Assembly: GCF_045037415.1 (NCBI RefSeq)
Contig: NZ_CP173438.1
From: Escherichia coli
GTDB taxonomy: Bacteria; Pseudomonadota; Gammaproteobacteria; Enterobacterales; Enterobacteriaceae
Reading direction: 5' to 3' (one strand)
Length of the DNA: 64,000 nucleotides
Shown: positions 1 to 3,000 of the stretch, piece after piece
Position numbering within the stretch: the stretch's first letter is position 1
Layout: each line of letters begins with the position of its first letter
Program-made: the position numbers

Positions 1-3000
1 ATAATGTTGCAACATCGTTCTATCCTTCATTTTTTGGGTGAGAAAGTGGGCTGCGGCGAGAAGCAGACAGATCCACATGTTTGTGTCGGGCGTAGAGTTT
101 TGCGAGCTGGACGAGAATAAACAGTGCCAGGCCCGCCAGACAGAGTTGTAAAATAAAGCGCAGCGTAATGCCTTCATTGGCGAGATCGCTTGCCATCACG
201 GTATAAATAACAATACCGGGTAGGGTCGTGAGTGCCGAAATAAGGGTATAAGGCCAGAAGGCGATTGTGGTTAATCCGTAAGCGTAATTTTGAATATTGT
301 AAGGAAACAACGGGATTAAGCGGGTCAGAATAAGAAAATCAATACCGTTACGCGCAATGCCTTTTTCAATGGCCTGAAAGGTATGGCTATGGCCAACGTA
401 TTTCAGCAGTAAATCACGTCCCAGCCAGCGCGCCAGAAGGAATGAGCACGAGGAGGCCAGCGTGGCGGCAATTAATGATAGTAGTGTCCCTAAGAGCGGG
501 CCAAAAACTATTCCTCCCGCGATCACCAGTATGCTTCCTGGTAACAGAAAGAGGGTGGCAATGATGAATAACAGAATATAGAGGCTATAGCCGAACAATC
601 CGCTCTGGCGAATGAGTGTCTGTAAGTGGGGTAAATCGGTGAGCAGATCGAATAAACCGAAAGCGTGGATAGCGTAAATGACCAGCGCAAAAATAAGACA
701 GGCAAAAAGAAATTTACGCTCAGCGTTCATCGTGGAGTTTCCTATATCAAACTTGATAATAGAGAAGTGGTCAGACAACTAAAAACGCAGTGACGGTATA
801 ACAAAGGACGGCGGGCAACAAATCATTACTGACAGTTTGTTGATTTTTCTCAAGGTTAATTCTCCTGACCCAGTTTGAGCCAGGAGATCAGCTAAATTAG
901 CGGCGGAAGGTCGCCCAGACGGGGGCGTGATCGGACGGTTTTTCCATGCTGCGAATTTCATAGTCGATGCCGGTTTCTACGCAACATTCTGCCAGCGGTT
1001 GGCTGGCGAGCAGCAGGTCGATGCGCAGACCGCGATTATCGTCAAAACCTTTTGAGCGGTAATCAAACCATGAGAAACGATCTGCTGTTTGCGGATTCGC
1101 ATGGCGGAAGGTATCGACCAACCCCCAGCTCATCAGCCTCTCCATCCATTCGCGTTCCTCCGGAAGGAAAGAACATTTTCCGGTACGCAGCCAGCGCTTA
1201 CGGTTCTCTTCGCCAATGCCAATATCCAGGTCGCCAGGACTGATATTCATATCGCCCATAATCAGCACCGGATTTTCACGCTTGAGTTCGGTTTCCAGGT
1301 AGTTTTGCAGATTCTGATAAAACTGCGCCTTTGCCGGGAATTTTATCGGATGGTCGCGGCTTTCACCCTGCGGGAAGTAACCGTTGATCACGGTGATATT
1401 GCCCAGCGGCGAGGGGATTTCCGCCATAATAATCCGCCGTTGCGCCTCTTCGTCGTCACCGGGAAAGCCGCGACGCACGGAAATCGGCGTCTCTTTGGTC
1501 AGCAGCGCCACGCCATAATGGCCTTTCTGCCCGTGATAAAACACGTTGTAGCCGAGCTTCGCCACCTCTTCGAGCGGAAACATATCGTCATGAACTTTTG
1601 TCTCCTGCAGGCCAATCACATCCGGTTGGTGCTTTTCGACGATGGCTTCAAGCTGGTGAGGTCTGGCGCGCAGGCCGTTGATATTAAAAGAGACAAATTT
1701 CATAGTCGCTGCCATTTATTCAGATAAAGAGTGCGTGGATGGTAGCAGAATTTCGCTTTGCTTACCGCCTGTTGTTAAGTGATTTGATCGATGGTTGTTA
1801 ATGATGTCAACGATGGCGCAAAAAATGCCCGCTTTTGGTGCGCGTTGCGTCAGAATGGCGCAGTAATTTCCAGTAAATTTCGTCAATGATCACAATTCCA
1901 GAATTATATTTTACTTCTGCATAACATTGCGTTTTTTATTCTTTTTATTCACCCACATCGCAAACGTATTCACTTTATATGCACTTTAAATGCATATGAT
2001 GTGGTTATAACTGCTTGATTTCCAGTTAGCCTCCGCCGTTTATGCACTTTTATCACTGGCTGGCACGAACCCTGCAATCTACATTTACAGCGCAAACATT
2101 ACTTATTATTAACATATAAATAACTAATTATTTACTGTAGAGGTCGCTATGTCTCAGCCAATTACGCGTGAAAACTTTGATGAATGGATGATACCTGTTT
2201 ACGCTCCGGCACCGTTTATACCGGTACGTGGCGAAGGTTCGCGCTTGTGGGAGCAGCAGGGGAAAGAGTATATCGACTTCGCGGGTGGCATTGCGGTGAA
2301 CGCGCTGGGCCATGCGCATCCGGAACTGCGTGAGGCGCTGAACGAACAGGCGAGTAAGTTCTGGCATACCGGCAACGGTTACACCAACGAGCCGGTACTG
2401 CGACTGGCGAAAAAATTGATCGACGCCACGTTTGCCGATCGCGTCTTCTTTTGTAACTCCGGTGCGGAAGCCAACGAAGCGGCGCTAAAACTGGCGCGTA
2501 AATTCGCTCACGACCGCTACGGCAGCCATAAGAGCGGCATCGTGGCGTTCAAAAATGCGTTTCATGGTCGCACGCTGTTTACTGTCAGTGCGGGTGGGCA
2601 GCCAGCCTATTCACAGGATTTTGCGCCACTGCCGCCGGATATTCGTCATGCTGCATATAACGATATTAACTCTGCCAGTGCGCTGATTGACGACGCCACC
2701 TGTGCGGTGATTGTCGAACCCATCCAGGGGGAAGGCGGTGTGGTGCCAGCCAGCAACGCATTTTTACAAGGTCTGCGTGAATTGTGTGACCGCCACAATG
2801 CGTTGCTTATCTTTGATGAAGTACAAACCGGTGTCGGGCGCACCGGGGAACTGTATGCCTATATGCACTACGGCGTGACGCCTGATCTGTTAACTACCGC
2901 CAAAGCGCTGGGCGGCGGTTTCCCGGTTGGTGCGTTGTTGGCAACCGAAGAGTGCGCCAGCGTGATGACCGTTGGCACTCACGGCACCACCTATGGCGGC

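What the first reader, a model, noticed from the sequence alone, without database searches (positions are those of the whole stretch)
1716..2148. Composite nitrogen/arginine control region upstream of astC
The 433-bp xthA-astC intergenic region contains a sigma54-type -24/-12 element (TGGCAC-N5-CTGCA, 2061..2076), a 21-bp near-perfect palindrome ATATGCACTTTAAATGCATAT resembling ARG boxes (1977..1997), and an NtrC-like GCGCAAAA...TTTTGGTGCGC inverted repeat (1815..1844). Together these fit NtrC, ArgR and sigma54 control of the ast operon.
Basis: partly seen in the sequence, partly recalled or inferred. Interest (0 to 1): 0.3.

Follow-up and report, generated by a model that had tools for sequence, protein, structure and literature searches.

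The report
Known astC nitrogen-arginine control region

Summary
The window is E. coli chromosome. The region 1704..2148 is the xthA-astC spacer. It is 445 bp long, not 433, and is 99% identical to K-12.

- **Sigma54 element (2061..2076):** exact. It ranks first of 127,968 positions with my PWM. It is letter-for-letter the published K-12 sigma54 ChIP-seq site marked experimentally confirmed, and it is present in 80 of 80 Enterobacteriaceae loci.
- **"NtrC-like" repeat:** it lies in the right place but is not the real dyad. PWM and conservation point to two 17-bp NtrC boxes, 1826..1842 and 1846..1862, 20 bp apart and centred at -253 and -233.
- **21-bp palindrome:** real, but near-perfect only in Escherichia. 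It joins two conserved ARG-type half-sites. The best ARG box is 1968..1985 (10 bits); the palindrome itself scores 5.8 bits.

Also conserved are an exact IHF core (2008..2020), a CRP-like site, and a sigmaS-like -10 overlapping the sigma54 start.

**Mechanism:** phosphorylated NtrC at the distant enhancer activates sigma54 polymerase through a DNA loop that ArgR helps to bend, and probably IHF too.

**Verdict:** already known, low interest.

The parts
1826..1842 (.). NtrC box 1 (TGCCCGCTTTTGGTGCG), centre -253 from the predicted sigma54 start
   Evidence: 10.9 bits with an NtrC PWM trained on 11 other NtrC-ChIP regions of K-12, rank 5 in the 64-kb window. 4 mismatches to TGCACCWWWWTGGTGCA. TGC..GC core 91% conserved in 27 non-Escherichia sequences. 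At least 8 bits in 59 of 81 orthologs.
1846..1862 (.). NtrC box 2 (TGCGTCAGAATGGCGCA), centre -233
   Evidence: 11.2 bits, rank 3 in the window. TGC..GC core 93% conserved. Of 59 orthologs with two hits of at least 6 bits, 52 have 20-bp spacing to box 1.
1813..1829 (+). Upstream half-site TGGCGCA (1814..1820) plus the left half of box 1. Reads as a third NtrC half-site and also as a weak sigma54-like GG-N10-GC motif.
   Evidence: Sigma54 PWM 7.5 bits, rank 76. Listed as a low-stringency sigma54 ChIP-seq peak (FAT 3, motif ATGGCGCAAAAAATGCCC) in Bonocora 2015 S2 Table. Direct repeat of ATGGCGCA at 1813 and 1855.
1876..1897 (.). CRP-like site (AATTTCGTCAATGATCACAATT): a good TCACA half and a poor left half
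   Evidence: TGATCACA invariant in 29 sequences and the block 80% conserved. Only 7 of 10 to TGTGA-N6-TCACA, which is background level. CRP is named among ast regulators.
1898..1911 (.). Conserved block CCAGAATTATATTT, factor unassigned
   Evidence: 91% conserved. ArgR PWM below 5 bits.
1916..1933 (.). Weak ARG-like box V (TCTGCATAACATTGCGTT), centre -162.5
   Evidence: 5.9 bits in E. coli. 10.8 bits in Salmonella arizonae and 8.5 in Citrobacter youngae. TGCATAA core conserved.
1968..1985 (.). Best ARG box X (ATTCACTTTATATGCACT), centre -110.5.
   Evidence: 10.0 bits with a PWM from 20 ARG boxes of 10 K-12 operators, rank 4 in the window. At least 7 bits in 63 of 81 orthologs, median 9.9. 86% conserved.
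1989..2006 (.). ARG half-box Y. Only the left half (A)ATGCATA / AGTGAATA is conserved.
   Evidence: Ortholog consensus AGTGAATAaCgccaggTT. Right arm 85% conserved, whole box 51%. X+Y is the best 21-bp pair in the window but scores only 6.4 bits.
2008..2020 (-). Predicted IHF site, AATCAAGCAGTTA on the minus strand, an exact WATCAANNNNTTR core, centre -73
   Evidence: One of 3 exact matches in 64 kb. Exact core at the same position in 76 of 81 orthologs. Specified positions 92% conserved and the N4 positions 37%.
2041..2058 (.). ARG-like half-box Z (TATGCACTTTTATCACTG) abutting the -24 element. It is the third copy of the TATKCACTTT repeat.
   Evidence: Direct repeat family at 1967, 1978 and 2041. 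TTATGCA.TTTT 90% conserved.
2060..2076 (+). Sigma54 promoter astCp, -24 TGGCAC (2061..2066) and -12 CTGCA (2072..2076). Predicted start at 2087, giving a 62-nt leader.
   Evidence: PWM 17.8 bits, rank 1. Identical to K-12 ChIP-seq site OS17 (FAT 7, PSSM 11.29, EcoCyc confirmed, distance 62). Salmonella ChIP-chip ortholog. Present in 80 of 80 loci at -87..-92 from the ATG.
2078..2088 (+). SigmaS-type -10 candidate TCTACATTTAC overlapping the sigma54 start region
   Evidence: 2077..2098 is 94% conserved, more than a sigma54 promoter needs. The operon has a sigma54 and a sigmaS promoter. The fit to the sigmaS -10 consensus (9 of 11) rests on my memory of that consensus.
2149..3369 (+). astC, first gene of astCADBE
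   Evidence: ORF. RefSeq annotation of identical sequences.

Best explanation
The spacer 1704..2148 is the E. coli astCADBE control region.

RNA polymerase with sigma54 sits in a closed complex on the -24/-12 element (2061..2076) and would start near 2087. Under nitrogen limitation, phosphorylated NtrC binds two tandem 17-bp boxes about 233 and 253 bp upstream (1846..1862 and 1826..1842). It oligomerises there and reaches the promoter by DNA looping, using ATP to open it.

The loop DNA carries phased ARG-type half-sites. Weaker boxes lie at 1916 and 2041. Arginine-bound ArgR binds these sites and bends the DNA, raising expression further. An exactly conserved IHF core at 2008..2020 probably adds a second bend.

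A sigmaS-type -10 overlapping the sigma54 start serves stationary-phase expression.

Shown here: the presence, scores and conservation of the sites, and their identity to the K-12 sequence on which the published binding data were obtained. Inferred: which ARG register is occupied, IHF binding, and the position of the sigmaS -10.
For: Locus identity:
- 100% match to E. coli genomes with xthA and astC annotated.
- 99% identical to MG1655, with no substitution in any of the three reported elements.

Sigma54:
- PWM rank 1 in the window.
- Published ChIP-seq site with identical sequence, flagged confirmed.
- Salmonella ChIP-chip ortholog.
- Present in 80 of 80 loci; published cross-genus PSSM conservation.

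NtrC:
- The two boxes score 10.9 and 11.2 bits; nothing else in the spacer exceeds 4 bits.
- 20-bp spacing, as at glnK, gltI, rutA, ddpX and patA.
- Conserved TGC..GC cores.
- Positions fixed to within 1 bp in orthologs.
- NtrC ChIP-seq peak and gSELEX binding at this spacer.

ArgR:
- Box X scores 10.0 bits and is conserved in 63 of 81 orthologs.
- The literature states that ArgR plus arginine raises astCADBE expression as an accessory factor.
- ArgR bends DNA 70-90 degrees at ARG box pairs.

Architecture:
- The 198-bp enhancer-to-promoter segment varies only 197-199 bp across 29 sequences, while the xthA-proximal 109 bp varies 66-118 bp.

IHF:
- Exact core in 76 of 81 orthologs, with a variable N4.
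Against: - The primary mapping papers (Kiupakis & Reitzer 2002; Lu & Abdelal 1999) are not in the held library. My box coordinates are therefore not checked against the footprints.
- Both NtrC boxes have 4 mismatches to the consensus, and none passes at 3 or fewer.
- ARG evidence is weak by biosynthetic-operator standards. The best pair scores 6.4 bits against roughly 20-38 for the canonical operator pairs (summed). Box Y has only a half-site. An alternative register (1957/1978) scores better in some genera.
- The published NtrC ChIP-seq peak maps to 2054..2134, over the promoter rather than the enhancer. The same is true at the other loci compared, so it cannot place the boxes.
- The IHF core alone is at chance frequency window-wide.
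- The CRP-like site is at background level by consensus.
Confidence: 0.9

Rival explanations
1. The 21-bp palindrome is the operator of some other dimeric regulator that recognises TGCA-N7-TGCA, not ArgR.
For: As a single ARG box it scores only 5.8 bits, and its half-site spacing is one base too long. It is locally unusual (P=0.034).
Against: The symmetry is near-perfect only in Escherichia and is 5-8 of 10 in other genera. The arms fall in the canonical 21-bp register of two ARG boxes. As an NtrC box it scores 3.7 bits.
Confidence: 0.06
2. The 1813..1844 segment is a second, weak sigma54 binding site rather than, or as well as, part of the NtrC enhancer. It might compete with NtrC or drive a long-leader transcript.
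For: ATGGCGCAAAAAATGCC has GG-N10-GC. A low-stringency sigma54 ChIP-seq peak (FAT 3) with this motif is listed for K-12. A gSELEX study picked the sister repeat ATGGCGCAGTAATTTCC as its RpoN motif.
Against: The PWM score is 7.5 bits, below all 22 training sites (minimum 10.7), and ranks 76 in the window. The ortholog median is 7.2, with at least 10 bits in only 11 of 79. The NtrC half-site TGGTGCA naturally resembles the -24 element TGGCAC. A weak ChIP signal there could also come from the loop to the main promoter.
Confidence: 0.12
3. The NtrC-like and ARG-like strings are chance matches in an A+T-rich spacer, and only the sigma54 element is functional.
Against: The two NtrC PWM hits rank 3 and 5 of about 128,000 positions, lie 20 bp apart, and stay at a position fixed to within 1 bp across about 25 genera. 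Box X is conserved in 63 of 81 orthologs. Published NtrC binding and ArgR dependence exist for this spacer.
Confidence: 0.02

Closest known systems
E. coli K-12 astCADBE control region (sigma54 promoter astCp with NtrC and ArgR sites; Kiupakis & Reitzer 2002, cited)
   Same: The same locus. 465 of 471 aligned bases are identical, all three reported elements are letter-identical, the genes on each side are the same and the spacer is 445 bp.
   Different: Six substitutions, at 1757, 1845, 1999, 2001, 2013 and 2125. Two fall in the non-conserved right half of box Y, one in the N4 of the IHF core, and one between the NtrC boxes.
Salmonella enterica ast control region (Lu & Abdelal 1999; sigma54 ChIP-chip site TGGCACGAATGCTGCAAT)
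   Same: The same arrangement and element order, and the spacer length is 444 bp in S. enterica subsp. arizonae. The sigma54, CRP-like, ARG-like and IHF-core blocks all align.
   Different: 71% identity over the spacer. In the Salmonella sequence the best ARG boxes are at the positions equivalent to 1916 and 1957, not 1968.
glnHp2 and glnAp2, the classical NtrC/sigma54 promoters
   Same: Tandem 17-bp NtrC boxes upstream of a GG-N10-GC promoter. For glnHp2 a DNA-bending protein (IHF) acts between enhancer and promoter.
   Different: The astC enhancer sits at -233/-253. From memory, the glnAp2 enhancer sites lie at about -110 and -140. The intervening DNA at astC carries ARG-type sites, so an arginine sensor modulates the loop.
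Biosynthetic ARG operators (argI, argF, carAB, argECBH and others)
   Same: The same 18-bp box motif, including the TGCAT/ATGCA variant. The 21-bp register is seen between X and Y.
   Different: Those operators have two good boxes (6-19 bits each) overlapping the promoter, and they repress. Here there is one good box plus half-sites, 90-160 bp upstream, acting positively.

Membership tests
Sigma54-dependent (-24/-12) promoter | GG and GC dinucleotides separated by 10 nt within TGGCAC-N5-TTGCW, scoring like known sites | tested here: met
   GG 2062-63 and GC 2074-75. PWM 17.8 bits, within the training range of 10.7-19.7, and rank 1 of 127,968.
Sigma54-dependent (-24/-12) promoter | Occupied by sigma54 in vivo and oriented toward a downstream gene | tested here: met
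   Identical K-12 sequence is ChIP-seq peak OS17 (FAT 7), 62 nt from the predicted start to astC, and flagged confirmed in EcoCyc. This is from the literature, not measured on this strain.
Sigma54-dependent (-24/-12) promoter | rpoN-dependent transcript start about 12 nt downstream of the GC | not testable with these tools
   The primary mapping paper is not held. The start at 2087 is the rule-based prediction, motif centre +19.
NtrC enhancer (upstream activating sites) | 17-bp dyad TGCACC-W4-TGGTGCA | tested here: met
   1826..1842 scores 10.9 bits and 1846..1862 scores 11.2 bits with a PWM trained on other loci. Both have 4 mismatches to the strict consensus, as do gltI and rutA.
   Its symmetry axis differs from that of box 1, its right arm has a 3-nt insert, the repeat finder does not report it, and it omits box 2.
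NtrC enhancer (upstream activating sites) | Two or more sites in tandem upstream of a sigma54 promoter, bound by NtrC | tested here: met
   20-bp spacing, seen in 52 of 59 orthologs with two hits. NtrC ChIP-seq (23-fold) and gSELEX (70%) signals at this spacer come from the literature.
ARG box operator (ArgR) | 18-bp imperfect palindrome wnTGAATwwwwATTCAnw | tested here: met
   Box X at 1968..1985 scores 10.0 bits, about 5e-5 per position. The 20 training boxes score 6-19 bits.
   The best register, 1979..1996, scores 5.8 bits and 1978..1995 scores 2.9. TGCA-N7-TGCA puts the halves one base too far apart.
ARG box operator (ArgR) | Two boxes separated by 3 bp (39-bp operator) | tested here: inconclusive
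   X+Y is in the 21-bp register and is the top such pair in the window. The pair scores only 6.4 bits, and only the left half of Y is conserved.
IHF site | Core WATCAANNNNTTR | tested here: met
   Exact on the minus strand at 2008..2020. Exact at the same position in 76 of 81 orthologs, with a variable N4.
IHF site | IHF binding and bending | not testable with these tools
CRP site | TGTGA-N6-TCACA | tested here: inconclusive
   1879..1894 matches 7 of 10, which is the background rate of 0.3% per position. The TCACA half and its flanks are invariant, and CRP is named as an ast regulator.

The most novel reading that the evidence does not exclude
The enhancer-promoter loop of astC may depend on an IHF site at 2008..2020 (centre -73). 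I am not aware of any description of this site. Its core is exact in 76 of 81 Enterobacteriaceae orthologs, and the 198-bp enhancer-promoter distance is held to within 1 bp. ArgR and IHF would then jointly set the loop geometry. In addition, the enhancer overlaps a weak sigma54-like motif (1813..1829) that gives a low-stringency ChIP peak. I could not check whether the primary papers already describe an IHF site.
Probability: 0.3. Interest if true: 0.25.

Novelty: already known. Interest (0 to 1): 0.08.

Why it matters
It matters little as a discovery. The astCADBE promoter is an established example of a sigma54/NtrC promoter modulated by an amino-acid sensor (ArgR). The value here is calibration: a reader without tools recovered the correct regulators from sequence alone. 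The follow-up gives corrected site coordinates and a cross-genus footprint showing that site order and spacing are conserved across Enterobacteriaceae. The conserved IHF core is a small, testable addition.

Tried and rejected
- I tried to read the two primary papers (PubMed 12003934, PMC135064, PMC93598) and the sigma54 review (PMC99035). None is held.
- Supplements of the ArgR ChIP-exo paper and of the oligo-library preprint are not held.
- The plain sigma54 consensus with 1 mismatch is not significant in 64 kb, so I replaced it with a PWM.
- The plain NtrC consensus at 3 or fewer mismatches finds nothing in the spacer, so I replaced it with a PWM trained on other loci.
- I tested the palindrome as an NtrC box (3.7 bits) and as a single ARG box (5.8 bits). 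Both were rejected.
- I looked for sigma70-type promoters in the spacer. Only two chance-level hits appeared, neither at the conserved blocks.
- I looked for a structured RNA in the spacer or leader and found no Rfam family there.
- I tried to use the published NtrC ChIP-seq peak to place the enhancer. This was rejected because at all six loci I compared, astC included, the peaks coincide with the sigma54 promoter.
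Full report
**Locus.** The window segment 1600..2300 is 100% identical to many E. coli chromosomes. It occurs once in 5,424 of 5,426 complete genomes, under the annotations xthA and astC. In MG1655, xthA starts 445 bp from astC. The window is 99% identical to MG1655 over 471 aligned bases, with six substitutions (1757, 1845, 1999, 2001, 2013, 2125). None of them lies in the three elements reported. The true spacer is therefore 1704..2148 (445 bp).

**Sigma54 element.**
- TGGCAC-N5-CTGCA is at 2061..2076 exactly as stated, with GG-N10-GC.
- The bare consensus with one mismatch is not rare: 4 hits against 3.3 expected.
- A PWM from 22 other published E. coli sigma54 sites gives 17.8 bits, rank 1 of 127,968 positions in the window.
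- The 17-mer CTGGCACGAACCCTGCA is letter-for-letter peak OS17 of the K-12 sigma54 ChIP-seq map. That entry has fold above threshold 7, PSSM 11.29, and is flagged as experimentally confirmed in EcoCyc. Its predicted start is 19 bp from the motif centre, 62 nt before astC, which is window 2087.
- The Salmonella ortholog is a ChIP-chip site.
- I fetched 80 astC loci from about 25 Enterobacteriaceae genera. All 80 carry the motif at -87 to -92 from the ATG, with only the spacer letters varying. This agrees with the published cross-genus scores.

**NtrC.**
Its right arm carries a 3-nt insert, the repeat finder does not report it, and as a unit it is no more conserved than the spacer (0.56 against 0.64).
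- The region is nevertheless the enhancer. With the published consensus TGCACC(A/T)4TGGTGCA, only two positions in the spacer have 5 or fewer mismatches. These are 1826..1842 and 1846..1862, with 4 mismatches each. That is the same as the best sites at gltI and rutA, and none passes at 3 or fewer.
- I trained an NtrC PWM on 11 other intergenic regions bound by NtrC in the published ChIP-seq. The two boxes score 10.9 and 11.2 bits, ranks 5 and 3 in the window. Nothing else in the spacer exceeds 4 bits.
- They lie 20 bp apart, like the pairs at glnK, gltI, rutA, ddpX and patA.
- Across genera the conserved letters are exactly TGC...GC of each dyad (91-93%), while the interiors vary. Many relatives have a perfect TGCACCA left half.
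- In 52 of 59 orthologs with two hits the spacing is 20 bp, and the positions relative to the promoter are fixed to within 1 bp.
- Published data show NtrC at this spacer in vivo (23-fold ChIP-seq peak, with direct binding cited) and in vitro (gSELEX 70%). The ChIP peak coordinates fall on the sigma54 promoter here, as they do at the five other loci I compared, so they do not locate the boxes.
Together with box 1 it mimics a weak sigma54 motif (7.5 bits). It is listed as a low-stringency sigma54 peak in the K-12 study.

**ArgR.**
- I rebuilt an ARG-box PWM from the operators of carA, argF, argA, argG, argR, argD, argECBH, argI, artJ and artP in MG1655.
- In the spacer the best box is 1968..1985 (ATTCACTTTATATGCACT) at 10.0 bits. 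It ranks 4 in the window, about 5e-5 per position. The palindrome in its best single-box register scores 5.8 bits.
- The palindrome (9 of 10 pairs, P=0.034 locally, 12 of this grade in the window) is near-perfect only in Escherichia. Other genera score 5-8 of 10.
- What is conserved is each arm separately. TATGCA (96%) is the right half of box X. TG(A/C)ATA (85%) is the left half of a box starting 21 bp later, at 1989. The seven central bases are not conserved. The palindrome is therefore the junction of two ARG-type sites in the canonical 3-bp-spacer register.
- Box X reaches at least 7 bits in 63 of 81 orthologs. An overlapping box one helical turn upstream (1957) does so in 29, and one at 1916 in 18.
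- The direct repeat TATKCACTTT at 1967, 1978 and 2041 adds a further half-box next to the -24 element.
- By operator standards these sites are weak (best pair 6.4 bits), and the occupied register cannot be fixed from sequence.
- That ArgR acts here comes from the literature. ArgR with arginine raises astCADBE expression as an accessory rather than essential factor, and the weak astC promoter is naturally bound by ArgR. ArgR bends DNA 70-90 degrees at ARG box pairs.

**Other conserved parts of the footprint.**
- An exact IHF core on the minus strand at 2008..2020. It is present at the same place in 76 of 81 orthologs, with consensus positions 92% conserved and the N4 positions 37%.
- A CRP-like site at 1876..1897 with an invariant TGATCACA. 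It matches only 7 of 10 of the core consensus. CRP is named among ast regulators. From memory, a CRP footprint was reported in Salmonella.
- An unassigned block, CCAGAATTATATTT (1898..1911), 91% conserved.
- 2077..2098, 94% conserved. It contains TCTACATTTAC, which fits a sigmaS -10 (consensus from memory). This agrees with the reported second, sigmaS-dependent promoter.
- The enhancer-to-promoter segment is 197-199 bp in all 29 aligned sequences, while the xthA-proximal segment ranges from 66 to 118 bp. This argues for a spacing constraint.

**Mechanism.** Sigma54 polymerase waits at 2061..2076. Phosphorylated NtrC assembles on the boxes at -253 and -233 and contacts the polymerase by looping. 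ArgR, and probably IHF, bend the intervening DNA so that arginine raises the output. SigmaS polymerase uses an overlapping -10 in stationary phase. The general scheme follows established knowledge of enhancer-dependent promoters and the cited statements. The site coordinates are my inference from PWMs and conservation.

**Comparison and novelty.** This is the same locus as the K-12 astC promoter region and is orthologous to the Salmonella one. Nothing in it is a new kind of element. The only possibly unreported detail is the conserved IHF core, and I could not check it against the primary papers.

**Limits.** Agreement with the experimental footprints and mapped starts is therefore untested. 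PWMs were trained on small sets of 20-22 sites.

Noticed in passing
window 1813..1830: ATGGCGCAAAAAATGCCC is listed as a second, low-stringency sigma54 ChIP-seq peak upstream of astC in K-12 (FAT 3). It scores 7.5 bits with my PWM and overlaps the NtrC enhancer. A gSELEX study picked the sister repeat at 1855..1871 as its RpoN motif.
   Followed up: partly
window 39532..39548 (+) and 36503..36519 (-): These are the second and third best sigma54 PWM hits in the window (15.4 and 15.0 bits). One lies inside nlpC, sense and upstream of ydiV; the other is antisense inside ihfA. Both appear in the published low-stringency sigma54 ChIP-seq table (FAT 5 and 6).
   Followed up: partly
window 1736..1751 (minus strand): A highly conserved ATTCTGCTACCATCCA reads as an extended -10 (TGcTACCAT) with C at -13. 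It is probably the xthA promoter, giving a leader of about 29 nt. The upstream in-frame ATG (1713-1715) is not conserved, so xthA starts at 1703.
   Followed up: partly
window 1898..1911: The block CCAGAATTATATTT is 91% conserved across 27 non-Escherichia sequences, but no factor is assigned. The ArgR PWM scores below 5 bits. The minus strand reads TATAAT.
   Followed up: no
window 2099..2137: The astC leader holds conserved TTAACAT (2109..2115) and TTATTTAC (2130..2137), and an internal 16-nt direct repeat at 2098 and 2120. There is no Rfam match and the function is unknown.
   Followed up: no
window 1933..1950: TTTTTATTC is repeated in tandem, giving phased T-tracts between ARG-like boxes. 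It is not conserved outside Escherichia.
   Followed up: no
window 61526..61633 (-), 32725..32849 (+), 36690..36848 (+), 10724..10766 (-): Rfam matches at gathering score: RprA sRNA, the phenylalanine leader (pheST), STnc540 and ES036. Two overlapping exact IHF cores lie inside RprA at 61609..61624.
   Followed up: no
window 3366..3369: The astC stop and astA start overlap by 4 nt (ORFs 2149..3369 and 3366..4400), which is consistent with translational coupling in the operon.
   Followed up: no
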